Assembly: GCF_006345805.1 (NCBI RefSeq)
Contig: NC_043006.1
Location: 104,904,001 to 104,968,000 of the forward strand
Reading direction: 5' to 3'
DNA length: 64,000 nucleotides
From: Octopus sinensis
Lineage: Eukaryota
The position numbers and the translations under genes are program-made. This document shows positions 6,989 to 64,000 of the stretch, one piece after another (position 1 is the first letter of the stretch; each line of letters begins with the position of its first letter). Under the pieces are notes generated by a model, which was not told the origin of the DNA, searched no databases, and worked only from the letters and a program-made list of their open reading frames with translations.

Positions 6989-7049
<61 letters not shown>

Positions 7050-7135
7050 TGTATATAGATACATATAGAGAGATATACGATATGGCATAAATAATGGCCA
7101 TTACATTTAGACATATATATAAACATATATATGTG

Positions 7136-7170
<35 letters not shown>

Positions 7171-7181
7171 ATCTATATAAA

Positions 7182-7221
<40 letters not shown>

Positions 7222-8007
7222 TATATTATATACATATATAGACATATATATATATAAATATACATTGAAACATATATGCATATCCATACATATGTTTACA
7301 TAAACACACACACGCACACAGACGCATATGTAAAGATGTGTACTTCTGTGCAGATGCATGCATGAATAAGTATGTGTGCTCGAATGCGTGTGTATGTGTG
7401 TGTTAGTGTGTAGGTGTCATCGTGAATGGGATGTATGTGTGAGCGTGGTTGGAGAAAAATCATTGTCTTTAATGTTCCAGTCCTTCCACGAAAGTAGTTA
7501 TCCCGCAGAAATGTAGAAATGCTTTTATATTTTATTTATATTTCCTCACGTATGTTATTTATTTAATTTCTTTTTTTTTACTTGTCACTTAAAAATGGTA
7601 GATCATTATATGAGAGGAAGCAAAAGAAAAAAGATAAAGGACAGAACTACATAAAAAAATATATGTGTGTACAAGAATAAAACTAGAGATTCTTAGTTGA
7701 ATTAAAGTCAATCCCTATTTTGATGTAAACAGAGATTGCCATTAGCAGAAGCTACATTTAGTAACATTACATTTTATTAAAACGATCATCTCACCGCTGA
7801 TTTGATAGCCACATAAAAATACCAGTTACAGATATTTACTATTTCTTCCTTTTATTTTCCTTCTTCTATTCCCCGCTCCTCTATCTCTTCCTTCTTGTCA
7901 TCCTCCCCTACTGCTGCTGCTGATGCTGATGCTGCTACTACTACTACTACTACTACTACTACTGGTAATCCTTAACTATCCGAATATTTTGCTATTATTA
8001 TCAACAT

Positions 8008-8057
<50 letters not shown>

Positions 8058-8059
8058 TT

Positions 8060-8455
8060 GTGGTGAGTTGGCAGAATCGTTAGCACGCCGGGCGAAATGC
8101 GTAGCCGTATTTCGTCTGCCGTTACGTTCTGAGTTCAAATTCCGCCGAGATCGACTTTGTCTTTCATCCTTTCGGGGTCGATTAAATAAGTCACAGTTAC
8201 GCACTGGGGTCGATATAATCGACTTAATCCGTTTGCCTGTCCTTGTTTGTCCTCTCTGTGTTTAGCCCCTTGTGGGTAGTAAAGAAATAGATATTTCGTC
8301 TGTCATTACGTTCTGAATTCAAATTCTGCCGTGGTCGATTTTGCCTTTTATCCTTTCAGGGTCGATAAATTAAGTAATAGTTGTGTACTGGGGTCTGTGT
8401 GATCGAATTCCCGCTCCCCACACAATCCAGGCCTTGCGCCTATAGTAGAAAGGAT
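8060..8455 (+). mobile_element. SINE family B, tandem pair
   Basis: Full copy 8060-8290 followed by a 5'-truncated copy. Confidence 0.85.
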
Positions 8456-8574
8456 TATTGCTATTATTGTTGTTGTTGTTGTTGCTGTGGATGTTTTTGT
8501 TAATATTATTCATTATTAATAATACTGTTTTTGTTGTTGTTATTGCTATTATCCGTATTTTGTGGTCAATATAT

Positions 8575-8620
8575 AATACTATCATCATCACCAGCATTAC
8601 TACTACTACTACTACTACTA

Positions 8621-8701
<81 letters not shown>

Positions 8702-8765
8702 TAATAATAATTATAATAATGCAAAGATGAAGAAGAAGAAGAAGAAGAAGAAGAAAGAGAAGAAT
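8575..8765. repeat. Compound (CTA)n/(ATA)n/(GAA)n microsatellite
   Basis: Direct inspection. Confidence 0.95.
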
Positions 8766-9072
8766 TCCCGCATCCTTGCTTTCTTCCTTCTCCATGAATT
8801 TGAACTGGAAATAGCGTTACCTGTCTTTTTTAAGAGGATAATTTAATAACTAAGTTGGTATAAATATGAAAACTGAAAGTCGTTTCAACAATACCTATGA
8901 AAGATATATATATTTGTATGCGCGGCTTGCAAAAATAGCTTTATTTAAATTCAATTTGCTTTTAATGTAATCTGGCGTTGAAATTTTGGGTTCTTAAATC
9001 TTATAGTAGTTCAAAATTTAGCATTCATTAACACGGCGGAAGTAATTTTTTATTGTAATTCTAGATGTATGC

Positions 9073-9330
9073 TCAAATTAAAAAAGAAAAAGATTCTGTA
9101 GTATCCATAACCAAATGGATAATTGAATCCCAACTAAACTTTTTTTTTTTCAAGAAAATGTTATCCATAGAGAGTAGCGATAAAACTCTTATCCCCACCA
9201 GTCGTGTCCATTGAAAGGGATTGTTACTCAGCAAGGAATATTGAATGGTCCGATTTTTTGAAGATTCTATGATATATATCAGGTCATTAAGAATGAAATG
9301 TCCGATTTTCTTCTGCACCAAATTTGACGG
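9073..9330 (-). mobile_element. Possible decayed L1/Tx1-like RT fragment
   Basis: ILNDLIYIIESSKNRTIQYSLLS resembles the RT segment preceding the LSLDFEKAFD motif. Weak match. Confidence 0.3.
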
Positions 9331-9399
9331 TCTTTAACTCTAATGTTTTATCCTGACAATTCTTGACTTTACAACTGTGAAGAGTTGCACCATGCATTT

Positions 9400-10097
9400 T
9401 CGAAATGCAATTCAGTTTTCTCTTGTAAATGAATTTTTGTGAACCCATGAATAAATAAAAATTTCGTGCTGTTTATGAAGATAAGTCCCGTCGTGAAGCC
9501 AAGGCATCTCAGCTCGAAACATCGATGAGATGTTTGGCGAATGAGCGCACCGTATGTCGGTGGTCTGAGAAGTTCCGCTCTGGTGACTTTACTCTAGACA
9601 ATCAGCCTCGTGTTAGAGCTGAGACCAAGGTGGATAATGATGAGCTGGCAACTGCAAGTGGAAGCGGATACATCTCAAACTACGCGTGAGTTAGCAGCAA
9701 GTTTTGTTGTTTCGATTCCAACTGTATTGGACCATGTGAAACAAATCGGCATGGTAGAACAGCTAGACAAGTGGGTGCGACACGAACTGGGTGAGCATCG
9801 TCTTGGAATCTTGCTGTTCTTTCATGTCACGTCATAAAAGCAAAACACTTTTGCATTGTATTGTTATGTGTGATACAAATTTGATTCTTTTCAACAATGA
9901 CATGCGTTCTGGACGAGGGTTGGCAAGAGAGGAAGTGTCTAAACACAATCCAAACAGAAATATTCACTCAAAAATGCTAATGGTGCCTGTTCGGTGGCCC
10001 AGGGCTGGTATCATCCATTACAACTTGGTAAGTCAATTACAGCGGATGTATATACCAAACAATTCGATGAAGTGATGAGTGAACTTGCAATTAAACA

Positions 10098-10101
<4 letters not shown>
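9400..10101 (+). mobile_element. Mariner transposase relic (cecropia/Hsmar1-like), truncated and frameshifted
   Basis: NERTVCRWSEKFRSGDF; LDKWVRHEL (WVPHEL motif); IVMCDTNLILFNN..REEVSKH.P..IH.KMLMV.V.W..AGIIHY. Confidence 0.9.
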
Positions 10102-10135
<34 letters not shown>

Positions 10136-10265
10136 GTGTCTGTGTATTATATGAGAGAAGTTGGCTTCTTTGGTGATATAAAAAGACGAAATGAAGATAT
10201 AGGTAAACGGTAAAAATATCTATATACTTAGATTCAGATGAATATGGTACTTATGTTGAGGCACG

Positions 10266-10303
<38 letters not shown>

Positions 10304-10952
10304 ATTATATATGTTTATATGTGTGTGTGTCTGTGTATGTGTCTGTGTGTGCTAGTGGAATGTAAACAAATCACACACACACACACACACACACACACCA
10401 CACATGTAGATTCATACAGAGGCGTCAGCAATGGAAATTTTGTGGGTGAAATGTTGAAGGAAATTCTATGTTAGATTAGATTCGTTTTGTCCTTATGGTC
10501 CTGCTTCCAGATCTTGTCCGCTGGTTTGTTTTCCTGATATTACTTTATTTTGGTTTGCGTGAAACTTCACTGAACTTATGCAAGTTCTAGTTAGACTTGA
10601 TCTCGAGATTAGATACACTTATGATTTCTCCCCAAACATCTGTAAATAAGTATCAACATTGTCAGTCTGGCTTCAGAGACCGAATATTAAGCCTATATTA
10701 ATATATATATATATATTTGTATGTGTGTGTGTGTGTGTGTGCGTGTGTGTGTGTGTGTGTGCATTCTTTTACTTCTTTTGTAGGGTTTTAATCGGACCAA
10801 TTGACCCCAGGATTTATTTCTTAAACCTAATAATTATTCTGTCGGTCTTTAGACGAACCAGTAGGTTACGGGGACGTAAAGGCACCAACAGCGGTTGTCA
10901 AGCGGTGATGAGGGATAACACTGACACAAAGGCACACACAAATAGATATATA

Positions 10953-11057
<105 letters not shown>

Positions 11058-11110
11058 CTGTACAGCTGATAACTCGCCTACCACTTGCGATGGTGTTTTA
11101 ATAATACCAT

Positions 11111-11151
<41 letters not shown>

Positions 11152-11160
11152 TATATATAT

Positions 11161-11535
11161 AGGCGCAGGCGTGGCTGTGTAGTAAAAGGCTTGTTTCCCA
11201 ACCACATAGTTCTGGGTTAAGTCGTACTGCGTGGCGCCTTTGACAAGTGTCTTCTGCTATAGCCTCGGGCCGACCAAATCCTTGAGTATGGATTTGGTAG
11301 ACGGAAACTGAGAGGAGCCTGTCTTATATATATATATATGTTTGTGCATCTGTGTTAGTTCCCGCACCGTCGCTTACAACTGTTGTTGGTGTGTTTATGT
11401 CACCGTAACTTAGAAGTTCGGCAACAGGAACCGATAGAATAGGTAACAAGGTATACAAAGAATATGTCCTACGGTCGATTTGTTCGACTAAAGGTGGTGC
11501 TCCAGCATGATCGCAGTCAAATGACTGAAACAAGT
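11161..11535 (+). mobile_element. SINE family A (tRNA head, CORE-like segment, internal microsatellite)
   Basis: ggcgcaggcgtggctgtgtagtaa..gcctttgacaagtgtcttc..ggatttggtagacggaaactga..cagtcaaatgactgaaacaagtaa. Confidence 0.85.
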
Positions 11536-11615
11536 AATATATATATAAATACGTGTGTGTGTATGCATATATATACATAGACATTAATATATTATAATAT
11601 AATATAATATAATAT

Positions 11616-11806
11616 CACTTTGACTTTGTCACTTTGACCTACCAGTCCGCCAGGCGTCCATTTGACACCGCTGGTCACAGCACGCTGTCCACTCCTCTCT
11701 GGATCGCGCCTTTCTCATCCACTTGATCCCAATTGTCCTCTTGAAATCGTCACTCCACCCTCGTGGAGTTCTTCCGGGTGGTCTTTTCCGCTCACGAAGA
11801 ACGAAG
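11616..11806 (-). mobile_element. RTE LINE 3' end, 5'-truncated, with short tandem tail
   Basis: RERKRPPGRTPRGWSDDF..W...ARSREEW is an RTE C-terminal motif. Tail (caaagt)n; inserted in an aatat repeat. Confidence 0.8.
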
Positions 11807-14800
11807 AGTAATATAATATAACATAATATAATATATATATGGTCACACACAAACGCACAAATATGCACTTGCACGCGCATGAGTGTAGTTCGGCTCAGTA
11901 TACTGAACACCGAATCACTGAACAATCATGAAATCAAGGCCCAGTTGGTAATTGAACACGTGGTGTTCTTTCATTCGAAGCTTTGATTAACCCAGCTGCA
12001 AACGCGGCGTATATATTGATTTAGGTAGCATAGATTATCTAAAATCTAAGCAAGACTTATTTGCTGTAACATTCTTGATCCAGCTTAATATATCATTCAC
12101 CATATAGATATAAGTGAACTGTAGGATATTAATATGGACGTAATATACTTTCTATATCATAAAATCATACACAAAATTAGATTAGTTACAGAAAGTGTTG
12201 ACGAAATTAATGTGTATCAGATCTGTGATAGATTGGAATTATTATATGCATTACTGATTGCTCTTTGCTTATTATTACTAAAGTGATAAACGAGACTTAA
12301 GTATTAAAAATATAATTACTGAGATTAATGTTGGCAAATTTCTGAAATGTTGGATTTTGCATTTATAATATAATATAAAACATTACACGCTTATTATATT
12401 ATTAATGATGTGATCTGTAATGTTATCAGGTAATGAATATAATACGTCAAGAATTACAGCCAATTAATTCCACCGAAGTGTTGACAGCTAAAATTTCTCA
12501 TTCAGTAAATCTTGTGTATATGTATTGTTATTTTAATTAGTGTATTTTTGAGAACCATTAAACAAACATAGGAAATATTTTAATTACAATCTAATATTAG
12601 TAAATGATCTCCATTTAAACCAATTTCTCAGCTGTTTTCCGACCCTTAGAAAATGTGTGGTTTATTTTCTTACGGCCAACAAAATTAAAATCTAGTTTGA
12701 AACTAAAAAAGAGAAAGATAATAAGGAATTGTCCAAAGAAAATTTTCTGTTGCTTTTTATCTAAATTGAACCACATACATTGTTGTGGGTGAATAAATTA
12801 AACTAAATCAATTACATTTGAGCTTGGGCTTAAAATGAAAATGTTAGCCGAGCAAGTAGACAACAGAAAGCCTCTTAACAGTGAAATCATAATTGTGAAC
12901 ATAGAATTCAATGATGCCTATGTTCCTGTTCTTTTATCAAGATTTTATCATATCGTGAGACATTCTGACTGCCTGAATCTGCAGTTTTGCCAGTAGATTC
13001 AGGGTTTTCTTAGCGTTTGTCTTGATTAAAAAACAGAGAATTAGATTTACATTCACACAAGCAAGATGCTACAAACGATATCAGAACGTGTTTGTCACAA
13101 TGTCTTAATGGTAAAATCTGAATATGTAGAAAATTATGTTCTTAGTGTTTCTAATAAAGTTTATTTTAGCTTTTGCTCCATTTTATCCTGAAAATCGATT
13201 TTAATAAATTATGTACTTCTGCTTTTGTTGTACACGCTGCGATGCCATCTCGCACCTTCAATGGGAGTGGGAACTCCGAGCTGGGAACTTCTAGCATGTT
13301 GTTGGTGGGGTGGGGGGGGGGTAAGTCATCTAAATCGGCCTCAATGCTTCACTTATACTTATTTTATCAACCTCCGAAAGGAAGAAAGGCAAAGTCGACC
13401 TCGGCGGAATTTTCGACTCAGAACATAAAGACGAACGAAATACCGCTCAGCCTTTTGCACGGCGTGCTAACGACTCTGCCAGCTTCCCGCCTTAGCTATG
13501 TTATTAATAGCGTAACAATATCTCATGATCCAATAATTATATAGGTACCACGCGAAAATTTATCAGTAAATAAGGTGAGACGAAGATATACTGGAATGGT
13601 CCTCCTTTGCTGTCTATAGTAGCCCCATCTAGAGGTATTTTATTCATCATAAACGACACCGAAGCTGCATAGATGTGTAACAGCTTACTGATACAGGGTA
13701 AAGGTCATTGACATGTGATGGAATTTAATGTGCTTGCTGACATGTAGAACTGTTTAGTCTGGTCTGGTTAATTTTATTGAGATGTCATATGTTATACTCA
13801 CGTCTAGTGGAGCTTATTAGTATATGATATATCTAAGTTGCGCGCCAGATATCTAGCGATGTGATTTAATTTTGTATTATATATCCATCTTCATTTCACC
13901 ATCCAACAGCTCAACATTTGGAACAACGAGACAACCTGTGCATAATTACTGTATCAGTAAGAAATAGTAGCAAATCTTCCTCAATTTATTCTCTACCGTT
14001 TTAAATTAGAAGACTTGATAGTTACGGTTGGAATAACTCTGTTCAGTTAGAGTTCACCTGGGGCATTGAAACAAAAAAGTATCATCACCATCATCGTCCT
14101 CGTCATCGCCATCATCATCATCATCAACAACAACAACAACAACAACAACGACGACAACGACAACAGTCAATGCATAAATTGACATGTCAGAAAGAATAAC
14201 TTCATCTCGCTCAAACCAGTTTGAAAGAATACATAATGAATTAATGAATAAAGTTATGGATTGACGAGAGACTAATAAATTTACTGAAACTGGTGACTAA
14301 TTAATTATAAGCGTTTTCTTTGCAAGACGCTTAAATTTATTGCATTCTTTCAATCTGAGTGAGACCCTGGCCAACTTGTTTTTGCCATCTATATGTATAA
14401 TAACCGTTTAAACGAACTGAATTCACTATTTTATTGAGTCGTAATACGAAAAATTTTCAAAGAATACCTTTGCTATTATTATTGTAATCCATAAATCCCT
14501 TCGTAATCTTAAGCAATTTGCTGTAGCCAATCAGCGCGTCGCTTGCGTTATGACATCATACATTTCTTCAGTCAATCCTGACACCTTAATTCACTTCAAC
14601 TCATTTATCATTTACAGTTAACACAATAGGTGACACCAAGATAATATGTCCGATTTTCAATTTCTTTTTTTTTAATGATGAAAGCAATGAAGAATAAATT
14701 GCTTCCTGACAAACGAAAATCGATACATCAGCACAGTATTATTCTGAATATTTCGCAACATATATTTATTAATTACGGTAACATGTGCTGTTCAACAAGT

Positions 14801-15898
14801 ACATGTGTGCATATTAATTGCTGTGTCTATTCTCATATGTTACCGTATCTATATATTCAGTAATACATCGAACAGCCTGGAGTATTTCTAATATACCTGT
14901 ATATGAATTCAAATATATTCCAGTCTCACATATTACATAAAATGCACGCTAATACTATTTCATTATCAATTAACGAGAAAACAATTAATATAGATAGAAA
15001 AGAATCAGCGTTGTGATTTTCGTATTCATCTGTCTCGATTTTTAACCATAATATATCACAGTATTGTGATTTTTCCTTTAGTTTCTGGTAAACTCTGATC
15101 AAGCAGAGCCATGATATAATCAAAAACATTTAAGTCAATCATCCCGTTATCTGTTTAACGACATGATGTATCCAAGTGAACGTTAATAGCGTTTGTTATA
15201 TTTTAGCAGACGTTGAAGATGTCATTTAACGGGAATCATAAGTAATCAGATTATTTCACTAGCTTTTCGATTTTCAATTCTAAACAATTTGGATGATGTA
15301 CAAAAAATATTAAATGTCAACGAAATCCGGTCTCTCTTTAAATTTGAGCTTAAGTACCCATCTTTATATGTTCATAATTGAAAGATTTGAATACTTACCA
15401 AAGTGTCAATTTGAAGAAATTATGATTAGGGGTTACAAGCTCTAATACCTAGCGCAAAGGGGTATAGAGTTATATTGCCAATTTAGGTGTTATGTGTAAA
15501 TGGATGTGTGACTGTGCGTGTATGTGTGTGCGTGTGATGCCTCTGTGTGTGTATGTGCGCGTGTGTATGTGTGTTTATAGTTTTAGTAAAACCAAAAAGG
15601 CAAATAAAACTCAATAAATGAGTATATATATTAATCTCACTAATTGACAAAAACTTATTTAAGTGACTCCAAAGTCATGACTTTCGAACATGGAACTTAT
15701 CAAAATATTATAAGTTTTGGGAACGGAATTTTCGACCCTGCAATTCCTTATGTTTAAATTATATTAGAGATATGTAAACCGCGTGCTTTTTCCTTCTTTT
15801 ATTTTATACATATTTTTTATTTTATCTATTTAAAAAAAAAAATCCATGTGAACATGTGCACAAGGAATGTATAAGTAGAGGCTCGGTGAAAGGAGAGA

Positions 15899-15933
15899 GT
15901 TTCACATTTCGAGCATAGCTCTTCGTCCTAAAC
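15899..15933 (-). ncRNA. Degenerate ultra-minimal hammerhead motif (family H1) with adjacent inverted half-copy
   Basis: gttt-agGACGA-A-GAGC tat GCTC-GAAatgtg-aaac. Inverted half-copy gctccaaacgtcaaactctctc at 15955-15977. Confidence 0.45.
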
Positions 15934-16188
15934 GATAATCCGACCAAGATTAGTGCTCCAAACGTCAAACTCTCTCTTTCCAACGAACGTCCAGTTAGTA
16001 CATTTCTTCTGCACGTCATCACGTTCGTTTCTCTCGTTTTTTTATTCGTTTATTTGAATTGACTTTTTACTTCACGCTCACACGGACCGTTCAAGTCTTT
16101 CCGACTGTTTTGAGTAACCGGTTCATGGATTACCCTTCCATTACGTTACTTTTTCATTCATTCGAAGTACGTCGTTTCTGCATCTTTG

Positions 16189-16225
<37 letters not shown>

Positions 16226-16227
<2 letters not shown>

Positions 16228-16410
16228 GAAGTTAATCCAAACAAGAAAGCACAAAAAAACACAACGACGTGGAACAAATATAGTATTATTGGACGCTCAG
16301 GAAAGAAGGAAAGAGGGAGGACTTAACGTTGCGAGCGGAGCTCTTCGTCGGAAACATAGGAGAAGGAAAGATCCAGAGAAGAGAAGACAGAGGAAAAAAA
16401 ATCGCCAACG
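16226..16410 (-). mobile_element. Short PLE-terminus-like repeat in (TA)n carrying an H1 hammerhead motif (16321-16355)
   Basis: Homologous to 24497-24693. Minus strand reads gttt-CCGACGA-A-GAGC tcc GCTC-GcA-ACGT-T-aagt. Confidence 0.6.
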
Positions 16411-17667
16411 ATTATATATATATATATATCATAGCTGCAAACTTGTATTCGAGCATTACCATCACCTTATCGAATGTCCCGTATATGCAAAGGCTACCAG
16501 CCATTTTTGTGATAGGTCTTACTTTTTTTTCAAGCGATACCTGTGCGTGGGGATTTTTTTTTATAGTAGGGAAAGGCATTACACGAATCCAATCCCCCTC
16601 TCTGAACATGTACAACATAAACTCGAGAAGAACTAGTCTACATAATCGAAAATTATCAGTGTCGCAGATTTTCTCTCAGAGTTTCCCTTTCCTAGAGAGA
16701 TGTTGTGACAACAACATCGGCGCTTCCCACTCCCAGTGGATCAACCGCGTGCCTGGACAACAACCCAGTTATTTCCACGTCCCTGCGCATGCATACAAGC
16801 ATATATACATACATATATATATAGATATTGTTGGATGGCAGCTCACTACTCATGAGCTCTTCTGCCCTTTGACAGGTTTTATATTTCGTCCTGCAGGGTG
16901 TCCATCAATTACCCTCTTCAACAAGCAAGCTTGATGAGGTTGCCAGTTAAGTCGCACGACCCACCCGTTCAACAAGTTGTAGTGGGTTACATGTTACCAA
17001 TAGCGACCTCTTATGCGCGCGCACACACGTGTGTGAGTGTGTGTATGTGAATGTGTGTGTGCATGTGTGTGTGCATGTGTGTGTGCATGTGTGTGTTTGT
17101 GTATAAAATTGCGTTTAAGGTATGAGGTATGTAGAATAAGTGCTCGGGTTGGTCTGCCACTAACACTCCGACTTGAGCTGAAATTAAAACAAAACGAAGA
17201 TCATGCTATAGATGACCAGCAATGAATGGCTGTAAGTGGTTACACATTCAGCAGATATAGCATTATTAAGAAATACTAAGAACACTTCAAAAACGATTGC
17301 CACAACCTTGCTATTTTAAGATCATTCTACACCTACAACTACGTCAGAGGTAAGCTCTATGTCAAGTTTCTGTAAATAGCAATATCCTTACATTCTACTG
17401 AACGCTAAGCAACGAATATTTTCTTCATCCATTTTAATTTGAAACGGACCTAAGGCAAAAAAACCGTGATGAAACTGCACTGACAATATTGCAATGTTGT
17501 ATCTGCAACAGTGTGCAGTCTCTGCAGTGGAAACGCATGTAGATCATGGTAATACGCTTAAATAACTGTAAAATAAATTATCGATGTGCAAATCTCATTT
17601 CTCCTTATTACTGATGCGTGTGCATATATATATATGGAGTGTGCATATGCGTGTGCATATATATATA

Positions 17668-18067
17668 CAGAGTGGCTGTGTGGTAAGTAGCTTGCTAACA
17701 AACCACATAGTTCCGGGTTCAATCCACTGCGTGGCATCTTGGGCAAGTGTCTTCTGCTATAGCCCGGGCCAACCAATGCTTGTGAGTGGATTTGGTAGAC
17801 GAAACTGAAAGAAGCTGTCGTATATATGTATATATATATAAGTGTGTGCGTATATGTTTGTATGTTTGTGTGTTGTCCCCCTAGCATCGCTTCACAACGA
17901 TGCTGGTGTGTTACGTCCCGTCACTTAGCGGTTCGGCAAAAGAGACCGATAGAATAAGTACTGGGCTTACAAAGAATAAGTCCGGGGTTGATTTGCTCGA
18001 CTAAGGCGGTGCTCCAGCATGGCCAGTCAAATGACTGAAACAGTAAAAGAGTAAAAGAGTAAAAGAG

Positions 18068-18068
<1 letters not shown>
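17668..18068 (+). mobile_element. SINE family A, full length
   Basis: Full head, internal microsatellite, tail (taaaagag)n. Confidence 0.9.
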
Positions 18069-18099
<31 letters not shown>

Positions 18100-18135
18100 T
18101 AGAAGAGGTAATAAACAGATCATGTCATATCAGAT

Positions 18136-18175
<40 letters not shown>

Positions 18176-18974
18176 TTTATATTTTATCTAGTTTCAGCTC
18201 ACGAGCTGTGGCCATGCTGGGGCACCGCCATATATATTTAGAATCCCACGAAAGACTCGTCCTTTCCTTCACTTTCCTTCTAATTGTTGTTTCGACTGTC
18301 CGCCTTTGTATCGTCCATCTATCCGCATCCGAATGTTTTATCGTCCTCTATTGCGCTTTTGTTCCATTATATATATATATATTGATTCTTCCGTCTATAT
18401 ACTGTTACACACTCTCTCTCACTCTCTCTCTCTCTTTTCTCCCCTCCTTAATTCATTTGGTCCTCTTTTTCTCTCTCTTCTCTTCTCACGTGACCATTGG
18501 CCGACTGCTAGCACATTTTGCCTTTGACCACGGTCAATGCCACATCGATATTCTTCCCTCTGCCATAGAACTTAATTCCCAACATGCCAGCTGAATTCAA
18601 TTCGTCCCCAGTCGAAAGACCCCTGTTGGTATGTCCTGTTATTAATATTATTATTATTATTATTATTATTGTTTTTTTGTATTATTTTTGTATTTATATT
18701 CGTGTAACATCGTCCGTTTTTCCGTCCTTGTTTCGTATACATTCGATGCTTTTTTTTCCAAGGAATCTAATGCTCTTAGCTTAGTTTTTCCTTGGGGCTG
18801 GCCAGATTGGAGCAATTTCAAGATTAATCAACCGAAATTGGCAGTTGTGAAGCTCCCACAACCTAACAGCTGGTCCTTATAGCATGCATTCGAAATAGAC
18901 TGTGACAAATAAGTTAGACCCATGATCTTATACATAGCTTGGACTCTTGGGAAGTCGGAGTTGTTTGTACTTTA

Positions 18975-27035: not shown

Positions 27036-27095
27036 GAAAATCTCCGAGTTTCGGATGCAGAGGTGGAAATCCACTTCGCCACCTCTTCAGTTATC
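27036..27095 (-). ncRNA. Degenerate type I hammerhead motif
   Basis: gataa-CTGAAGA-GG..(hairpin)..CC-GAAAC-tcgga-GaT-tttc. The cleavage triplet appears mutated. Confidence 0.45.
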
Positions 27096-27378: not shown

Positions 27379-28173
27379 AAAAGTATACACTCATCCTCCC
27401 ACACTTGAAACAGGCACAATCTCACCCGCCCCATTCACCAATATATATATATATATATATATACATACATATACAATCCCACACACACGCAGGCGCACCA
27501 AAAAGGTTCATACACACGTCTGTATACACACAGGCACAAGGAAGTCAGGGCTAAGGGCAACAATACAGTAAAAAAGTCGTAATGGAGTATAAAAATAAGC
27601 AATGAGAGTACAACACGTCTATATATGCACATACCCGTATGCACCCACACACACACACGTCTAAATACGCGCATACAGGCACACGTCTATATGCGCACGT
27701 GCACAAGAAAAATAGCCCTGTTCGTGTATGTGCGCATATAGACGTATGTATGAACTTTTTTGTGCGCCTGTGTGTGTGTCAGTGTGCGTATATAGACGTG
27801 TGCGGTTATGCGCGTATTTAGACGTGTGTGTGCGTTCATACGTGTATGTGCGTATATAGACGTGTTATACTCTTATTGCTTATTTTTAAACTCGCTTATA
27901 CCTTTTTTTGTATTGTTGCCTTGTGAGTGGATTTGGTAGACGGAAACTGAAAGAAGCCCGTCGTAAATATATATATATATACGCATATATACATTTGGGA
28001 GATCGTCTTAACCTGATTTGCCTTCGGTTGAAATCTGTAATTAGCATCAGTGTATTGTGGCGATTTAAATAAGATTTTTGACTGTTATATCCAGCAGGTA
28101 GGCATAGTTATTATGTCCTTTGATTAATGTCAATCCTTCAGATATATATACATATATACACACGGGCGCGCAC

Positions 28174-28847: not shown

Positions 28848-30199
28848 CCACTGGGCCATTGCGCCTCCTCTCACACACACACACACAGATACACACAAAT
28901 ATATATATCCACGAAATTCCACATATCAGAAGAGGTTTCAAATAACGAAGACATGACAAAGCCAACAGTGGCAGCCCAGCATGACCGTAGCTTTTAAGTT
29001 GAAGCTAGTCAAACAGCATCGGACGTGTCCATTTAATGATTTTGGCAGAGAAAGGCAAGAAGAAATTCCTGACCTAACAAAGCCAATGCGAAAGAAATAT
29101 TCATGGTGGACTTTGTGAAAAACATCTCACTTGCCTGATGACCAAAAGATAGGCTGAAAATTTGAAAACGATATTAACGATCGGATTAAAATCCTGTTGA
29201 AGATATCAAGAATTTCCAATGCAGTAAAGCTGAACAACATTGAACAAGAAAGCCGTCAATCAAATGGAAAAAAAAAATTCCTTCTCGATTCTATGAAACG
29301 TCTTCAATATTTTCAAGCACAGATTTGGCGAAACGACTCGCAATACACAAACCTCGTTATTCAAAAGCAGACAGCTTACCAAATCATGGAAATAAAAAAG
29401 AAAATATGTGAATACTCGTTGAAAATGTTTCTAAATGAAGCTTTCAAACAAACGTCAACAAGTTTGCTGGGTCGTTTTAGAAATACTGAAAAAGAGAATA
29501 AAATTTCGATTTTATAAAACTGAGTAATGATATTGACGTTCTGGTGCACCCAAGACATGTTAAATAGAAATATAAGAAACTGAAATAGGTTGGAAGAAGA
29601 TTTATGTGTAAGAAATAATCAGTGATTATGTATAACAGAAAAAAACTGAAGATGATCTTTTCGTAGGTATGAATAACTGGTCAAAAACATGCAATTGAAT
29701 CAAAGCGGTTGGTAAATACTCACAATCCAAATTCTGTAAATAACAGGCACTATTAGTATATTTGCTTGAATATGTTATTTGAATTGAATCTAAATGTTCC
29801 CTCCGATGAAAAACTTGATGATGGGCTTTAACGATAACCATTACTCGCAGACACTTTATATTTACGTAGCACAAATTTCAGCGATAGCTACAGGCATTGG
29901 GCTATGTTTGAATACACCATGTCCCAAAGGTATAATAAAAGCAAAGAATTATATTTCTGGCATAATATAATATATGAAAGATATCGATTAATAAAGTACC
30001 TCAGTCATCTTATTGGTATTCATACACAGTCACTGTATTTCTATCTGTCTATGTCTATACTTATCGACCTGCGTACGCACGTACACCCACAAACACACAG
30101 ACATATGCGCAAGGTCATAGAATTTTCTAGTTTAGTGCCCCGGCACATATCCAGCCCAACAGAAAGAGAAGCTTGAGTTTTGTTGTATGAGGCAAACAT

Positions 30200-30975: not shown

Positions 30976-31050
30976 GTAATATAGGGCAGGAAAAAATTAT
31001 GGAATATTTTCTACCAGTGACCTAATATGTATACAAAGTCAATAGACATA

Positions 31051-32308
31051 CGAGGGGCGTTCAATAAGTAATGCCCCTGACCCACTTGCCTTTGTTTGAT
31101 CTAGCTGATCTATTATTTATATCTCTATAGATTAAGTGGCAAATTACAGCTCTGAGATAATTGTAGTTTCTGATTTACAGGTGTTTGAACTGAGTCAAGT
31201 GTGAAATGGAGCCTGTTGAGTGTCGAGCAGTGATCTGGTTTTTGTATTTGAAAGGACGCACACCACGGAAGACTTTTGATGAAATGAAAGTAACTTATGG
31301 TGATGATGCCCCATCATATGACCTTGTAAAACGCAGGCATCGTGAATTCAAACATAGTCCGAACTCTGTGGAAACAGCTCCCAGATCTGGTCGCCCCCAT
31401 CTGCCGTTGATGATACGTCTGTCCTTCAAGTTGAGGCTGCCATTTTGGAAGGTCAACGCATAACTATTCGCCAAATAGCCCATGACGTCAAGATTAGTAC
31501 CGGGTCTGTGGAAACTATCATTCATGATCATTTGCATATGCAAAAGGCGTCTGCCAGATGGATTTCCAGGTTGCTCACACCTTTCCAGAAGCAAGAACGC
31601 GTTGAGTGCTCGAGGGTGAATTTGGAGATGTGCCAAGAAGATGAGTCAAATTTTTTCAAAAGACTGATAACACAGAATGAAACCTGGGTCCATCACTATG
31701 ATCCATAGACCAAAGCCCAGTCAATGCAGTGAAAGCACCGTGACTCACCTCCTCCAAAGAAGGCAAGGGTGCAGCCCTCCGCTGACAAGTTTATGCTCAC
31801 AGTCTTCTGGGACCAGGACGGAGTAGTGATGACAGATTTCCTGGCAAAGAGTACCACAATTACAGGAGCCTATTATGCTTCACTTTTGAGGAAATTAAGA
31901 GAAGCTATCAAAATCAAGAGGCAGGGCAAGATCAGCAAAGGCATCCTCCTCCTGCAGGACAACGCTCCGGTCCACAACTCGCTTGTCACCAGATCAGAAG
32001 CACAGGCGTGCAGCTATGAACTCCTCCTCTTGCACCCTCTGATTTTCACCTTTTCCCAGCCATGAAGTGGATTTTGAAAGGAAAGCGTTTCCCAGATGAT
32101 GCAGCCTTGATTTCTGAAGTCACGTCGTGGTTGGAGGACCAAGCTGGGGTCTTCTACAAAAACGGTCTCCAGAGCTGTATCAAACGATGGGAGAAATGCA
32201 TAACTCTGGGTAGTTTCAATGTAGGAAAAGACTAATAATTGTGCCAAGTGTCGTTGCTCTACTGCTATGGGAAGTGGGTCAGGGGCATTACTTATTGAAC
32301 GCCCCTCG
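31051..32308 (+). mobile_element. Full-length mariner transposon (irritans-like), transposase pseudogenised
   Basis: Perfect 37-bp TIRs cgaggggcgttcaataagtaatgcccctgacccactt; TA TSD. ORF remains 31206-32235: RAVI.FLYLKG, ARWISRLL, ITQNETWVHHYDP, LQDNAPVH. The YSPDLAP region is deleted; stops and frameshifts present. Confidence 0.95.
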
Positions 32309-32465
32309 TAGTTTCATATAAAAATCAGTGTACATTTAAACACAAAAGAGGTAAGCCTTAACAGGTTGCCTTACATGCTAGAAGGAACAGTCAAAAAAGT
32401 CCAAACCACAGTTAAGAGCAATTTCGAAGGGAATGAAGAATATAAACATTTACCATGTTTTACAG

Positions 32466-35829: not shown

Positions 35830-36920
35830 ATATCTCGCCGATCTGCTTCAGCAATTTCAGATGGCAGATCGTTACACACTTGATTACTCGAGCTTCCTAG
35901 TGTGGACCAGGGCTACTGTCAACAGGTCGTGCAGGACTTACATAGGATAGTGGTACGAACTAGAGATAAGTCTAGTTTTTGTTGTACACAGTTCTTCTTG
36001 ATCCCCTACACGGATCACAAATTAGTGAAGAGTAGGATGATCATAGTGAGAGTGAATAGACAGGGATCCGTTTATTGGAAGCTGAACAATAGTATTTTGT
36101 CTTGTGAGGCTTACCGTAACCGGATTAAGGAGTTAGTTAAGATGGCATTAACCGGCACTGCGTTGAATAACCGGTGGTGAGCTGTCCTCAAACAAGCCAT
36201 ACGCATTAAGTCAATTACATTTAGCTGTCATTTAAATTTAGATAAGGTTAGAATAGGAGGGAATCTAGTTAAGGAGGCGTTGAGGTTGAGTTCTGCGTCC
36301 GACACCTCAAAGCCGAACACAAGGGATTCAGAGTCAGGGCTAACGTATGTGCATTGGATCGTGAGGGAACCAACGTTGCTGGATGGGCCCGTACGGTGGA
36401 GACCCAGTGTAGCAATGACGCCACAATTAGAACATTGGTTAATGAACAGGAATGTTTAATCGAAGGACAGGACGAGATTAGTGGGGCCATTTAAGAGCAT
36501 TTTGCCGAGGTGTTCGGGAAGAGCAGGACGCTGGACCATAGTTATGACTTTCGGGACTTCCTGGACGGCGGCCTCAGAGACTGAGTACTCTGAAGGCCGA
36601 TTACAGCCAAGGAGGTCATAGATGTACTTTCCGAGTGCCCCGGGGACAGGACGCGGCGACTTAATAGTCTACACTATGAGTTTTATAAAAGTATGCCAGA
36701 CATGTTCGGACACCTTCCGGCTTGCTTCTATTCTGGCTTGCGTCCATTCTGCTGCCAACTGGCAGGGTCGCCCATTAGTACGTGGCAGCAGTCTTCGGGG
36801 CGGCCGGGCTGGGCCCAACTTTCCGCAGCTGGATCACTGCTGTGTACAGCGACATTGAATCTGTCGTCCGGTTTCTTTTTGAAACCATTCGAGATAAAGT
36901 GGTCTGTTCGCCAGGGATGT
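35830..36920 (+). mobile_element. Tx1/L1-clade LINE ORF2 relic (APE end to RT, internally deleted)
   Basis: YTDHKLV; GSVYWKLNNSIL; [23 protein letters not shown]; [13 protein letters not shown]. Confidence 0.85.
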
Positions 36921-36955
36921 ATTTATATGTATGTATATATATATATATGTATATG

Positions 36956-37045
<90 letters not shown>

Positions 37046-37142
37046 AAATTAGAGACAAAACCACTATTATGCAAATCAAACAAAGAAAGACTTAAGCCAA
37101 TACATAAAATAATTTATATAAATTAAAATTTAAAAAATGAAT

Positions 37143-38879: not shown

Positions 38880-41412
38880 CTTGAAATCCTGGAACTTTGC
38901 GATGAACATGGACTTTACATCGCAAGCACTCATTTTATGCACAAAGGGGATCACACAACGACGTGGATGCATCCAAGGTCTAAAGTTTTGCACTTGCTGG
39001 ATTATGTCATCATCCGCAAGCGTGGCATGTATGACATTTGTAATGTCAAGTCCTCTCATGGATCGGGATGCTGGACAGACCACAGTCTAGTGCGAGCAAA
39101 GTTCCAGATGATGATTAGAGTGAAAGAGAAAGAGGGCCAGTCAGCATTCCTCGGCGTCTGAATATCCACAAGATGCATGATACTGTGGTTGAGGAAAGAG
39201 CTTCAAAATGGGCAGATTTTCGAGACCATGTTCGTCAATGTGCTGCTGAAACACTGAGATATGCTACTGACAGACACAGAGACTGGTTTGATGAAAATGA
39301 TGCTCAAGTTCAGCGACTATTGTCTGTAAAGCGCTGTATTCACAGTGTATTGCTTCACAGTGGACTTTCTGCTGTGCAGCGAAATCTAGGACTTGCCCAA
39401 TATAGCAGTGTAAAATCACTACCGCAGCGATCTCTCAGGAAGATGCAGAACACTTGGTTGGTGGATCTTGCTCATGATGTTTAGGCTGCTGCTGATGCAA
39501 ATGACAGCAAGAAGCTTTACCATCATATGAAGCAAATTTATGTGCCTAAGAGCTCTACATGGGCTCCTTTGCATTCCTAGGAGTTTCCACTCTATTTACT
39601 AAATCAACAGAAATCACAGGTCGCTGGATCGAGCACTTCTCTGCATCATGAATGAGTTGTGGATTTATTGTCTCCTTAAATTCCACGATCTCAATAGATG
39701 AAGTAATGACATCAATAAGTAAATTGAATCTTGGTAGGGCACCTGGAAATGATGGATTTTGTGCTGAGGTCTTGTGATTTGGTGGTGATTACATCATACA
39801 GCCCCTTCATGTTGTTATGCAGTCTGGAGGGATGGTGCAATGCTATTGTTCTTCCTCTCTATAAAGAAACAGAACAATGTGTGGTAACTACAGAGGTATT
39901 GCTGGCAAGCTTCTGGCAAATATTCTTCTTAGCCGCCTGAATGGGTGTCTCGTAAATGATGTCTCATCCGAATCCCAATGTGGCTTCCGATCTGGTAGAG
40001 AGACAATGGATATGACTTTCGCAGCGAGACAGATGCAGGAGAAGTGCAATTAGTAGAATATGGATCATATCTAGGTATTCATTGATCTAACGAAGGTCTT
40101 TGATACTGGAACTAGTCTTTCTATGGAAAATACTTGGCAAACTTGGATGTCCGGATCACTTTGTATCTATAATTAAATCATTTCATGATGGAATGGGGGT
40201 GGAATGGCGGATCCCATTCCTGTAGAGAATGGCGTCAAGCAGGAGGACATCCTTGCCCCAACTCTCTTTTCTTTGCACTTTGCTGCTGCTTTTACCCATG
40301 CTTTTGCTCTCTGGTTAGCTCTCTAGGAGTATATGTCAGATATAGATCTTCTGGCCGCCTCTTTAATCTGTGCCAATTTGCTGCCAATACAAAAGTTTTC
40401 CAGTCTCTTATTCGTGACCTCCTTTATGTAGATGACTGTGACTTAGTCAATCATACAGTGGACGACATGCAAATACTTATGAATTGTATTTCTGCTTCTT
40501 GCAAGGCATTTGGACTCAGCATTAGCCTGAAGAAGACTGTTGTAATGTTCCAGTATGCACCACGAATCCATATGTGGAACCAACTATCTTGGTTGAAGGA
40601 ACAATTCTGAAAGTGGTGGACAAGTTTGTCTACCTGGGCAGCACACTCAGACGTTCTTGTTCCCTGGAGTATAAAATATCTTTCAGGCTGCAGAGACCAG
40701 TCAGTTCCTTCCGTCTCTTCAGCCTTGTCCCAGGTCCCAGCATGGCATCACAAGGCAAACGAAAATTGCTGTGTACCGTGTATGTGTACTGATATCGGTC
40801 CTTTACTCATGTGAGACGTGGGCCCTTTACAAACATCATGTAAAGGTCCTTCAACGCTTTCATCAGCAATATCTCAAGCACATTCTGAATGTCAGCTGAA
40901 CCTTAAAAACTCCAGACACACAGGTCCTGAGGACAGCTGATATCTTGACTATTGAGGTGATGGTGCACAAACACTGGTTACGTTGGACTGGACACCTTAT
41001 TAGAATGAAGGATAGAAGGATCCATAAGCATATACTATAAGGGAAACTTGTGAATGGAAAGAGACCCTGGCATAAACCAAGGCTGCGATATCTGTGATAT
41101 CCAGGAGACTGACTGAAAGAACAATGCCTGTCATCGCCACAGATGGAGGAAGCAGGTGAAGTAGTAGGTAGACACTTGAGAGAGCACGTGTTCAGCATGA
41201 AGAACTTAAGCGTGTAGCTCGGAGGCACATTGCTAGTGTAGTGAATGAGGGAAAGCTTGGTCTGCAATGTTTACAGTCGTGTATGGTTGTCAAGAGCAGG
41301 GCTCATTAGCCACCAATGGAGTCGCAAATGCAAGTTATAAGTTAGTCCTAGAGCGCACAATGTTCCTGAAAGTCAGCAATGGTCTTCCTCGGTCACGAGT
41401 GGACCGCCATCA
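38880..41412 (+). mobile_element. RTE-clade LINE, 5'-truncated pseudogenised ORF
   Basis: TTWMHPRSKVLHLLDYVI; DWFDEND; ESQCGFRSGRETMDM; GVKQEDILAPTLF; LLYVDD; FVYLGS; RWTGHL; C-terminal zinc-finger-like remnant. Confidence 0.92.
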
Positions 41413-52245: not shown

Positions 52246-52249
<4 letters not shown>

Positions 52250-52627
52250 CTTGTTTCAGTTATTTGACTGCGGCCTTGATGGAGCACCGCCTTTAATCGA
52301 ACAAATCGACCCCATGACTTATTCTTTGTAAATCTAGTACTTAATCTATCGGTTTCTCTTTTGCCGAACCGCTAAGTTACGGGGACGTAAACACACCAGC
52401 ATCGTTGGGGGGACAAACACAGACACACAAACATATACACACACATACATATATATATACATATACGACGGGCTTCTTTCAGTTTCCGTCTACCAAATCC
52501 ACTCACAAGGCTTTGGTCGGTCCGAGGCTATAGTAGAAGACACTTGCCCAAGGTGCCACGCAGTGGGACGGAACCCGGAACCATGTGGTTCGTAAGCAAG
52601 CTATTTACCACACAGTCACTCTTACGC
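52246..52627 (-). mobile_element. SINE family A, young full-length copy
   Basis: Near-consensus match. Confidence 0.9.
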
Positions 52628-52661
52628 TATATATATTATTATATATATATATAATATAATA

Positions 52662-52699
<38 letters not shown>

Positions 52700-52705
<6 letters not shown>

Positions 52706-53061
52706 GTTCTAGCAGACTCTACTGCGATTTCTTAACCCCAAGTGTTCGCCTGCTCTCGCTGGTTAACGAAGCACAGCTACATTCCATAAAATATAAATAT
52801 TGCTTGCAGAAGCAATCTGCTATCATCTCAAGCAGACGAGGAGTCCAGTCGTGAGGAGTGGCAGAAATAGCCCAAAACCAGGACTGGTCGCCTGGTCTCG
52901 TCGCTAGGAGATGGTAGGGGTTCGCTCTCCTGCACGTAATTCTAATTCTATCAGATGCAGCTGTGTATCGTTAACCAACCAGAGAAGATGTCCTCTTACA
53001 GTTAAAAATCGAAGCAGAGTCGGCTCGAGCGGTCAGCCATGTTAAAGTGGCTACGAATATT
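52700..53061 (+). ncRNA. Rod-like self-complementary element capped by a degenerate hammerhead (52845-52887)
   Basis: Three long imperfect stems with G-U pairs. Tip reads CCAGTC-gTGAGGA-GtGGC..GCCC-aAAAC-cag-GACTGG. Flanked by (TA)n. Confidence 0.6.
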
Positions 53062-53178
53062 AATTGTCAGTACAACTTCACCGTTGATCTCTTAGAGAGA
53101 GTTTAGAAAAGCATTTTTGCTTATATATATATGCATATATATATATATATAATATATATATAATATTATATTATATAT

Positions 53179-53945
53179 TACAGGATGTCGCAAAAAACAT
53201 GTATACGCACTCTAGATGATTGTAAAGTAGGTGTTTATTACAATATATTTCGTTTTCAAAATTTAATAGAATCTACAGACATTATTTTATTGTTTTGTCA
53301 ACAACTATTTTCAAACTGAGGTCTGTTCTGGTCCAGGTACTGCTGACAACGCGAAGCAACGGAATCGCAAACATCGCGAAACAATTCGTTTGGTATTTGT
53401 GTGCATTCTCTTCAATGGCTCTTCTCAAATCAGCGACCGTCGTAGGTTGCATAACGTAGACTTTGTCTTTTAGGTGTCCTCAAAAAAAGTCTAGTGGTGC
53501 GAGGTCTGGTGAACGCGGATGGTATTCGACGAAACCCTTTCGTCTAATCCACCTGTTTAACAAGATCTCATCAAGGAAGGATCTAACATCGCGATGGTGG
53601 GGGGGGGGGTGAAGTCCCATCTTGCTGAAAAAAAAACTTCTCATCTTCATAGTCTTCTGTGATGCTTGGCATGACAGATTGTTGCAGCAAGTTCAAGTAA
53701 ATGGGACCAGTCACAGTAGTTTCAAAAAAGAATGGGTCCAATCCACTTGATGATAAGCCACATCACATTGTAACCCCTGGTAAATTAACATGGTTCCACC
53801 ATAGCATGCAGATTCTCAGATCCCCAGCAGATGTAATTGTGGCTGTTAATTGAATCATTTTCTTTGAATGTGGCCTCATCATTCCACACAATCTTCGTTG
53901 GAAAGTGTGTATATTCTACACATCGTGCCAAGTACTACTCGCAAT
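53179..53945 (-). mobile_element. Tc1/mariner-superfamily relic (approx. DD41D, rosa-like) with one TIR
   Basis: [16 protein letters not shown]; [11 protein letters not shown]; FFFQQDG..RWI.RKGFVEYHPRSPDLAPLDFF; KDKVY. Terminus TA-caggatgtcgcaaaa. Confidence 0.88.
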
Positions 53946-54624
53946 ACTGCACTCAAATTCCGCTGAGGCCCACTTTGTCTTTCATTCTGCTGGGTTTGAT
54001 AAAAAAAAGTGCCAATCGACCTTGAGGTCGATGTAATCGATTTACTCGCCTCCCCGGAAATTGCGAAAATTTTGCAATAAATATTTTTAATACTTAATTC
54101 TCTCTGTATAAGACAAAACCATCTTTAGAAGAAACTTAAAAACATTTTTGAAGTAGAAATACAGAAAAGCTTGTGAATTGAGCAAATGTATTGAGACTTG
54201 TGTAATTTTCTACGCTTTAAACTGAAATTATAAAAGGGATATAAGAAACACTTTTCTTTTTTGCCACCTATAGAGAAACTGGTGTTGAAAGAGACATGTC
54301 GAATGAGTTTAATCTAGGTTCTATTATAATTGCATAATAATTCATTTGAACAAAATATTCCGCTTTATGAACAGAAACCCTGATGAGGAAATACATATTA
54401 ATGTGTGAATATGAGATGAAGCGAAACAGAAATTCGCCGTCGACTCGGAATTTACAATAAGATTGAAACACGTGCGCCTAAAAGAATAATAAGAACAAAC
54501 TGCAGCTATTTCATGAAATTATTGACATCAGTTTCGAGTAAAGTAAATATTGTCAATGATGACTGGAATATATATAACCTCACATATCCAACATTTATTG
54601 AAGTATTACATTTTATCTATGCAT

Positions 54625-63054: not shown

Positions 63055-64000
63055 CTGATGAGTTGTCCACACTATTCTAGCTTTCGGGGATGCGAAACCA
63101 TTGGCAAGTCTATGACCATAGTTTAACTTATTCTTTTAATACTTGTGGATCATTTGAAGAATGATTTGCTTTCGAGTCTTTGATATAAAGCTTCGTCCTT
63201 AGACGGGTTATGTGGACGCCTATTTGAAGCGGTTTTATGCAACGCATGTATATCTCTTTTTCTATGTAATACTGAATGTGTTTCTCCAATTTATTTTCAC
63301 TGTAAATCTTCCCTCAATTACACGGCAGGTAGCGAAATCCTTTCCCTGCTTCAAGAGATGGTGTTTCCTTTCAACGCCTTCTTTAATTAATGTTCGATTC
63401 GTTAAGCTTTAAAACTTGAATACCCAGCTCAAGTATTCCTACCTGTTTTATGTTAAAACTGGCAAAAACCGGCCTCTCACACCTACCCTGCAATGTCATT
63501 TTGGAAATAAGCAACAACATAATCGAAATCTCGGTGCTACGAGATAAAGCATGATCAATTAAAAGCAATGCGAATAAATTGACATTACAATTAACAGAGC
63601 AATCCGAATGCCGAAAGGTTAAACTATGTGCATGTAGCGTTTAATGAGTTATCTTCATAATCCTGCATAGAAAGGTTCGATCTATGATTGAAGATTATTA
63701 CAATTACTTTTCACGTAAGACCGTATTTGGATAGCATATTTAACACCGTTTTCCTCGGACGTTATTAACAAATTTGATAAAACAAATTGATGACGTCAAG
63801 AGCTAAGAGTGTTCATATTGGAAATGGATGAAATGAGATCCAAACAAATGTTATGGATTGATATCTGTTCGAAAAATGATGTTGTTTGAGGGAAATATTT
63901 ACAAATGTGGGATGATAAATTAATCTACTTAATAATCGATTTTGCGTTTATTATATTCGGTGATTTATAATATACTGCTCAATTATACGTTTACGAAAAT

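What the first reader, a model, noticed from the sequence alone, without database searches (positions are those of the whole stretch)
52700..53061. ~360-nt viroid-like rod with a hammerhead-like tip
Seen: nearly continuous fold-back (gactct/agagtc, cgattt/aaatcg, tggttaacga/tcgttaacca, gcacagct/agctgtgt, tgcag/ctgca, ctatcatctc/gagatggtag, gacgag/ctcgtc), interrupted by single mismatches and G-U pairs. At the apex is a junction closed by CCAGUC/GACUGG, with gUGAGGA and aAAAC cores (C3 and G12 altered, NUH missing). It sits between (TA)n tracts. Inference: the mismatch/wobble pattern looks like RNA-level structure rather than a DNA TIR pair. It may be a decayed copy of a rod-shaped HHR RNA (retrozyme or viroid-like) not matching the other families here, and would be a good ADAR or Dicer substrate.
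Basis: partly seen in the sequence, partly recalled or inferred. Interest (0 to 1): 0.75.

Follow-up and report, generated by a model that had tools for sequence, protein, structure and literature searches.

The report
Dead retrozyme copy with inverted arm
This fold-back is an old copy of a many-copy genomic repeat whose other members carry a complete hammerhead self-cutting motif that is broken here at two core letters; the inner half of the rod is likely the RNA's own stem and the outer half likely a second, reversed partial copy added when a Penelope-type enzyme pasted it in, so it is probably an ordinary dead retrozyme insertion and not a viroid-like RNA.

Summary
The fold-back is real (z -9.05 and -10.66), but it is two things. 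Contigs of four public runs show a family of roughly hundreds of copies. Their commonest letters restore a canonical type I hammerhead: C3 and G12 return, and 34 of 34 hand-set pairs form, against 32 here. Two tandem junctions give a unit of 335-349 nt that leaves out 52705-52790. That stretch is a reversed partial copy of the family's 3' part: 9 of 12 listed variant sites become Watson-Crick matches with it, none breaks. The element spans about 52701-53122 in (TA)n, with arms pointing to two family end sites 57 nt apart, the Penelope-type footprint. Verdict: decayed non-LTR retrozyme insertion, a new member of a known kind. The scan noted the same two-armed layout for other families in this genome; I took that frame from those notes. 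Cleavage, expression and the partner enzyme are untested. One oddity: the reversed arm joins almost in register with the RNA's own stem.

The parts
52628..52702 (.). left (TA)n tract, likely the target site
   Evidence: sequence
52701..52790 (-). reversed, 5'-truncated second arm: a copy of family positions about 52944-53031, possibly running on to 53061 with the 24-nt terminal hairpin lost between two ACG triplets; inner limit bracketed at about 52785-52800
   Evidence: 66 of 88 aligned sites complementary to the right arm; 9 of 12 listed family letters match it; depth 24-64 at 52750-52779; family contigs start at 52789-52797
52791..53122 (+). forward arm: almost exactly one retrozyme unit (332 nt, 44.9% GC), running across the predicted cut site
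   Evidence: junctions 53108>52795 (+21 letters) and 53106>52791 (+33) give periods 335 and 349; fold z -3.58 linear, -4.24 as a circle; GC
52791..52945 (+). the unit's own rod: hammerhead stem I and its extension
   Evidence: -64.0 kcal/mol, z -5.18 on +; -51.6, z -3.75 on -
52835..52902 (+). type I hammerhead, dead in this copy: stem I 52845-50/52890-95, core 52851-57, stem II 52858-62/52870-73 with one bulged U and a 7-nt loop, core 52874-77, stem III 52877-80/52885-88 with a 4-nt loop, predicted cut after 52889
   Evidence: pair table; in run X1 91% of depth has C at 52851 and 82% has G at 52874
53034..53062 (+). terminal hairpin (53035-39/53048-52) and conserved block just before the first family end; possible signal for the reverse transcriptase (inferred)
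   Evidence: highest depth of the element (54,136 in X1) and no variant among the 40 listed rows (81 not shown); fold
53066..53122 (+). 57-nt tail between the two family ends (53065 and 53122), both reading CTT then ATAT
   Evidence: loose ends behind 53062 (X1, 22 contigs) and behind 53108 (17-21 contigs in X1, X2, X3); distance
53123..53179 (.). right (TA)n tract
   Evidence: sequence

Best explanation
The locus is a decayed copy of a many-copy repeat with a 335-349-nt tandem unit and a type I hammerhead, likely a non-LTR retrozyme that a Penelope-type enzyme probably inserted into a (TA)n tract as one forward unit plus a short reversed arm. Inferred working: an array or circle is transcribed and the hammerhead cuts after GUC. 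A borrowed Penelope-like RT/GIY-YIG protein nicks both strands of AT-rich DNA and starts cDNA at two internal sites of the RNA (53122 and about 53065). One cDNA runs almost one whole unit, across the cut site, so the template was an uncut multimer or a re-ligated circle. The other stops after about 90-120 nt, and the two are joined head to head. Because the join fell at the foot of the RNA's own stem-I rod, the reversed arm prolongs that rod and the locus looks like one viroid-like hairpin. Both arms then decayed neutrally, and C3G and G12A inactivated the ribozyme. Shown: fold, multi-copy state, family letters, two wrap junctions, end sites, arm complementarity. Inferred: cleavage, transcription, circles, the enzyme, order of events.
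For:: 653-841 contigs laid per run; depth at the hammerhead is 176-524 times the depth on the left arm. Commonest letters give all core positions and 34 of 34 pairs, with one double change (C-G here, A-U in the family at 52850/52890) and an A/G variant at 52891 that pairs with U either way. Wrap junctions skip 52705-52790, each in two runs. No piece among the 32 listed starts left of 52789, and three distinct contigs carry 50 or more unlaid letters beyond their laid part on either side. Outer arms: 9 of 12 listed sites turn Watson-Crick, 3 stay mismatched, 0 break; each arm keeps family letters that the other lost (loose ends before 53004). Literature: reversed 5'-truncated copy, tail at one end and (TA)n targets for Penelope-like elements (PMC8557442); two internal RT start sites, both strands cut, C3G abolishes cleavage (PMC11167929); 150-450-bp type I hammerhead repeats under 50% GC (PMC7229834).
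Against: All family data are short contig pieces with capped tables (40 of 121 variant rows, 15 of 56 joints, 32 of 3239 pieces shown). Each wrap junction is one contig per run. At 52928 and 52934 the family letter breaks a pair with this copy's left strand, and the family letters opposite were not shown. The tail is 57 nt, longer than the 30-40 bp in print. The left end lacks the hairpin and the last letters of the 53065 end, so it may simply stop at 53031. The inner rod's preference for the sense strand (-10 kcal/mol) lies within the neutral null (11% of 300 runs as extreme). Many differences are transversions (15 of 26), more than plain decay suggests, so the source may be a divergent subfamily. 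No partner element was found.
Confidence: 0.8

Rival explanations
1. The whole 330-360-nt rod is the RNA unit: a rod-shaped hammerhead RNA of a minor subfamily, or a viroid-like RNA, copied into the genome whole.
For: The rod is continuous and almost in register across the join. A family with near-perfect arms would also make family letters match the left arm, and its contigs could be laid on either arm. The left arm has a cluster of differences at about 52741-52750 that decay alone explains poorly.
Against: Wrap junctions skip the left arm; family contigs stop at 52789-52797 with long unlaid ends; the outer duplex is stronger on the antisense strand; no hammerhead core with at most one change on the minus strand is followed by a GAAA-type core; 0 hits of the core pattern in viral and metagenome contigs.
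Confidence: 0.07
2. It is the pseudo-LTR remnant of an autonomous Penelope-like element (partial tandem plus reversed copy), not a separate non-coding retrozyme.
For: Same insertion footprint (PMC8557442); retrozymes and pLTRs are sister sequences in frogs (bioRxiv 10.64898/2026.07.22.740005).
Against: The unit wraps on itself at 335-349 nt; longest stop-free frame over the element is 83 aa; the hammerhead has a full stem III, whereas PLE motifs are described as minimal (PMC7761336).
Confidence: 0.1
3. It is a DNA transposon derivative (MITE or fold-back) with decayed terminal inverted repeats in a TA target.
For: ATATTCG and CGAATAT flank 52700-53061 and TA lies on both sides; outer arms decay like DNA copies.
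Against: The family restores a whole hammerhead, runs on 57 nt past 53065, ends at two sites on one strand and forms direct tandems.
Confidence: 0.03

Closest known systems
Animal non-LTR retrozymes (coral, mussel 350-390 bp, axolotl 330/350 bp; PMC7229834; vertebrate survey bioRxiv 10.64898/2026.07.22.740005)
   Same: Non-coding unit of 335-349 nt, under 50% GC, one canonical type I hammerhead, direct tandems, self-paired fold, many genomic copies, solo copies known.
   Different: This copy is dead (C3G, G12A) and carries a reversed arm; the parts of these papers that I read do not describe reversed arms for retrozymes. No RNA evidence here. No cephalopod family found in two searches.
Penelope-like element insertions (PMC8557442; Anolis Poseidon in vitro, PMC11167929)
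   Same: Reversed 5'-truncated copy next to the 5' end, extra tail at one end, AT-rich or (TA)n target, two start sites.
   Different: No ORF; tail 57 nt instead of 30-40; hammerhead canonical, not minimal.
Hammerhead viroids and viroid-like satellite RNAs (PMC7761336, passages; rest recalled)
   Same: Size, strong self-pairing, a hammerhead at one tip.
   Different: Many chromosomal copies; hammerhead in one polarity only; half of the rod is not part of the RNA unit.

Membership tests
Animal non-LTR retrozymes | Canonical type I hammerhead in the unit | tested here: met
   Family letters: all core positions, 34 of 34 hand-set pairs. This copy: C3 and G12 lost.
Animal non-LTR retrozymes | Direct tandem unit of about 150-450 bp | tested here: met
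   Two wrap junctions, periods 335 (runs X1, X2) and 349 (X3, X4), one contig per run; this locus holds one unit.
Animal non-LTR retrozymes | Non-coding, GC under 50% | tested here: met
   44.9% GC; longest stop-free frame 83 aa.
Animal non-LTR retrozymes | Highly self-paired monomer | tested here: met
   52791-53122 as a circle: -102.1 kcal/mol, z -4.24, 0 of 100 shuffles; the signal comes from 52791-52945, while 52945-53122 alone has z -1.18.
Animal non-LTR retrozymes | No LTR, primer binding site or polypurine tract | not tested
   No long direct terminal repeat seen; PBS and PPT not searched.
Animal non-LTR retrozymes | Self-cleavage; linear and circular RNA in tissue | not testable with these tools
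   Needs bench work or RNA runs.
Penelope-type insertion footprint | Reversed 5'-truncated copy next to the 5' end | tested here: met
Penelope-type insertion footprint | 30-40-bp tail at one end, from two start sites | tested here: inconclusive
   Two end sites 57 nt apart; the left arm's end is eroded and may stop at 53031.
Penelope-type insertion footprint | AT-rich or microsatellite target | tested here: met
   (TA)n on both sides; other copies also run into ATAT.
Penelope-type insertion footprint | Autonomous partner with RT and GIY-YIG that shares the ends | not testable with these tools
   No whole genome is held.
Viroids and viroid-like RNAs | The rod is the RNA unit | tested here: not met
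   Unit wraps without 52705-52790.
Viroids and viroid-like RNAs | Ribozyme in both polarities; no dispersed chromosomal family | tested here: not met
MITEs | Terminal inverted repeats shared by all copies, TA duplication, no tandems | tested here: not met
   Ends at two sites on one strand and direct wraps.

The most novel reading that the evidence does not exclude
The in-register join is a mechanism, not luck: after one turn round a circular retrozyme RNA the Penelope-type enzyme stalls, and the cDNA uses the ribozyme's own stem-I rod to snap back (or to anneal to the second cDNA) and so builds the reversed arm. Such insertions would lengthen a short hammerhead stem into a 330-nt viroid-like rod in one step, a route from genomic retrozymes to rod-shaped ribozyme RNAs. 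Against: the 4 opposite-strand joints listed for other loci (52852>53040, 52855>52900, 52857>53034, 52954>53034) are not in register, and this locus was picked because it looks like a rod.
Probability: 0.12. Interest if true: 0.65.

Novelty: new member of a known kind. Interest (0 to 1): 0.27.

Why it matters
Modest. It adds an older retrozyme family to a genome in which the scan has noted several younger ones; I found no cephalopod retrozyme in print in two searches. It is also a caution: a Penelope-style reversed arm can turn a retrozyme's stem into a false 'viroid-like rod', so genomic rods with a hammerhead tip need a family check. If junctions cluster in register across the family, they would show how Penelope-type enzymes make their reversed arms, a step that the in vitro work leaves open.

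Tried and rejected
Rfam: 0 matches at gathering score in the window; 19 weak matches near the element, no hammerhead. No second copy in the window; no BLAST similarity worth noting to five other window regions, four of them with hammerhead-like cores. No genome held, so full copies and empty sites could not be read. Run search: no RNA holder listed; no evidence either way on expression. Exact patterns: 0 hits in metagenome contigs and viral contigs. Earlier findings by sequence, near, relatives and one word search: nothing. A 300-nt grid scan did not rank the element among the best 25 of 425 windows; microsatellite fold-backs dominate and the grid cuts the rod off-centre (inferred). Strand asymmetry as proof of RNA-level selection in the inner rod: not significant. 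ADAR imprint: rejected for this copy (A>G 2 of 26). C>T variants at 52837, 52899 and 52902 keep pairs as G-U but lie in CpG, so I did not count them as covariation. A dimeric hammerhead with a 2-nt loop III was considered and dropped: stem III has 4 pairs and a 4-nt loop. A separate read-out of family letters over the left arm and the join was not obtained, so the join stays bracketed.

Full report
Observation. The stretch 52700-53061 folds into one long imperfect hairpin, -143.6 kcal/mol on the + strand (z -9.05, 0 of 100 shuffles as good) and -154.2 on the - strand (z -10.66). The arms align over 146 sites with 109 Watson-Crick matches. (TA)n tracts lie at 52628-52702 and 53123-53179. The window is microsatellite-rich animal DNA; earlier notes of the scan call the genome octopus, which I did not check. 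The element is single in the window. Rfam gives no match at gathering score and no hammerhead among 19 weak matches.

It is a multi-copy family. Four public runs hold part of the stretch (4 of 8 listed). Laid at 80% likeness, each gave 653-841 contigs, most under 90% alike. Summed depth over the hammerhead is 6,203-18,645, against 24-64 over 52750-52779, a ratio of 176-524. The tool warns that depth is no copy number, so I read this only as 'hundreds'. The locus itself is present in two runs of differently labelled organisms (0 differences in 160 letters, 1 in 159).

The family carries a canonical type I hammerhead. In run X1, 91% of depth has C at 52851 (C3) and 82% has G at 52874 (G12); the N7 position varies freely. 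With pairs set by hand, stem III is 52877-80/52885-88 with a 4-nt loop, stem II 52858-62/52870-73 with one bulged U, stem I 52845-50/52890-95, then an internal loop and 20 further pairs. This copy forms 32 of 34 pairs and the commonest listed letters form 34 of 34 (unlisted positions were taken as equal to the window, and 81 variant rows were not shown). GUC stands at 52887-52889, so the cleavage triplet is not missing. C3G alone abolishes cleavage in a Penelope hammerhead (PMC11167929), so this copy is very likely dead.

The RNA unit is not the rod. Two junctions run from the right end back into the element: 53108 to 52795 with 21 letters between (runs X1, X2) and 53106 to 52791 with 33 (X3, X4), one contig per run, giving periods of 335 and 349. 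Both skip 52705-52790. None of the 32 listed pieces (of 3239) starts left of 52789; eight start at 52789-52797, and three distinct contigs among them have at least 50 unlaid letters on either side. The stretch 52791-52945 still folds as a rod on its own (z -5.18 on +, -3.75 on -), and the unit folds as a circle at z -4.24, while 52945-53122 alone is unremarkable (z -1.18).

The outer half is a reversed copy. I entered 32 of the 40 listed variant rows, leaving out three single-contig rows on the left arm, the minor A at 52999 and four rows right of 53061. Twelve rows fall in the outer right arm and have a partner. For 9 of 12 the other letter turns a mismatch or wobble into a Watson-Crick match with the left arm; 3 stay mismatched; none breaks a match (one of the nine is a minor variant, 11%). 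The arms differ at 22 of 88 aligned sites, with 3 G-U, 8 A-C and 11 transversion mismatches on the + strand. The outer duplex is 21 kcal/mol more stable on the antisense strand, beyond 98% of a neutral-decay null; the inner duplex favours the sense strand by 10 kcal/mol, inside the null. Against my reading, or unexplained: at 52928 and 52934 the family letter breaks a pair with this copy's left strand; 15 of 26 majority differences are transversions; family letters over 52791-52830 were mostly not shown, so the join is bracketed at about 52785-52800 and could lie somewhat further in.

Ends. Loose ends show copies running into ATAT after 53065 (22 contigs, X1) and mixed ends after 53108 that include the 53122 end of this copy. 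The two sites lie 57 nt apart. The left arm ends either at the equivalent of 53031 or near the 53065 site with the 24-nt hairpin lost between two ACG triplets; the sequence cannot decide. The block 53034-53062 has the highest depth and no listed variant.

How it most likely works. Established for the class: animal retrozymes are 150-450-bp type I hammerhead repeats, expressed as linear and circular RNA, with Penelope-like elements as the proposed carriers (PMC7229834: abstract, results parts 1-2 of 3, discussion; bioRxiv 10.64898/2026.07.22.740005: abstract, results part 1 of 2, passages; its supplements were not seen). Penelope-like insertions often have a reversed 5'-truncated copy and a 30-40-bp tail at one end and favour (TA)n (PMC8557442: passages and section 6). 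A purified Penelope protein cuts and extends both strands of AT-rich DNA and starts at two internal RNA sites that bound the tail (PMC11167929: parts 1-2 of 4). Inferred for this locus: priming at 53122 gave a cDNA of almost one unit that crosses the cut site, which needs an uncut multimer or a closed circle; priming at the other site gave the short arm; the two were joined head to head at the foot of the stem-I rod. Neutral decay followed. I took the two-arm, two-site frame from earlier notes on other families and tested it here only on this locus.

Rivals. A whole-rod RNA (0.07), a pLTR remnant of an autonomous element (0.10; PLE hammerheads are described as minimal, PMC7761336 passages) and a MITE (0.03) are weighed in the Rival explanations section. 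The core pattern had 0 hits in viral and metagenome contigs.

Novelty. New member of a known kind. Searches for octopus with hammerhead ribozyme (5 papers, 4 listed) and retrozyme with cephalopod (2 papers, 1 listed) showed no description of a cephalopod retrozyme; retrozyme with inverted and Penelope gave 8 papers, 7 listed, of which I read parts of three. The library lacks most subscription journals, and repeat libraries were not available. The boldest reading left is that the in-register join records snap-back on the ribozyme's own rod (0.12); the 4 listed opposite-strand joints of other loci are not in register (41 joints not shown), and the locus was chosen for looking like a rod. Interest 0.27.

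Noticed in passing
window 52845-52848, 52878-52887, 52892-52895: Stems I and III of the hammerhead use the same four-letter word, so stem I's 5' strand can pair upstream of the cut site instead; this is the minimum-energy fold and might act as a built-in off state.
   Followed up: partly
window 53034-53062: 29-nt block with a small hairpin: highest depth of the element and no listed variant; diverged relatives join it from the left. Possible end signal shared by several subfamilies.
   Followed up: partly
window 27049-27090 (-), 29135-29159 (+), 54380-54426 (+), 63055-63097 (+): Further CUGANGA...GAAA core motifs (4 of 11 hits); no similarity to this element and no Rfam match. Some may belong to the permuted hammerheads noted earlier in this genome.
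   Followed up: partly
window 27556-27893: Long near-perfect fold-back rich in microsatellite-like words, the most stable 300-nt window of the scan; MITE-like.
   Followed up: no
window 53180-54000 (-): Broken frames with words such as DLAPLDFF and HLKDKVY that recall a Tc1/mariner transposase (recalled); no Pfam match for 4 fragments beyond two chance hits, none in the PDB for one.
   Followed up: partly
window 31049-31090 and 32269-32310: 42-nt inverted pair about 1.26 kb apart, possibly transposon termini.
   Followed up: no
window 52247-52407 and 52467-52627: Dispersed repeats with 9-13 matches in the window directly left of the element; SINE-like by recall.
   Followed up: no
window 36594-37052 and 39119-40610: Open frames that recall decayed LINE reverse transcriptase (recalled, not searched).
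   Followed up: no
window 52940-52949: This copy has about 6 extra letters relative to most family contigs, opposite the A/T-rich join on the left, which keeps the rod in register.
   Followed up: partly
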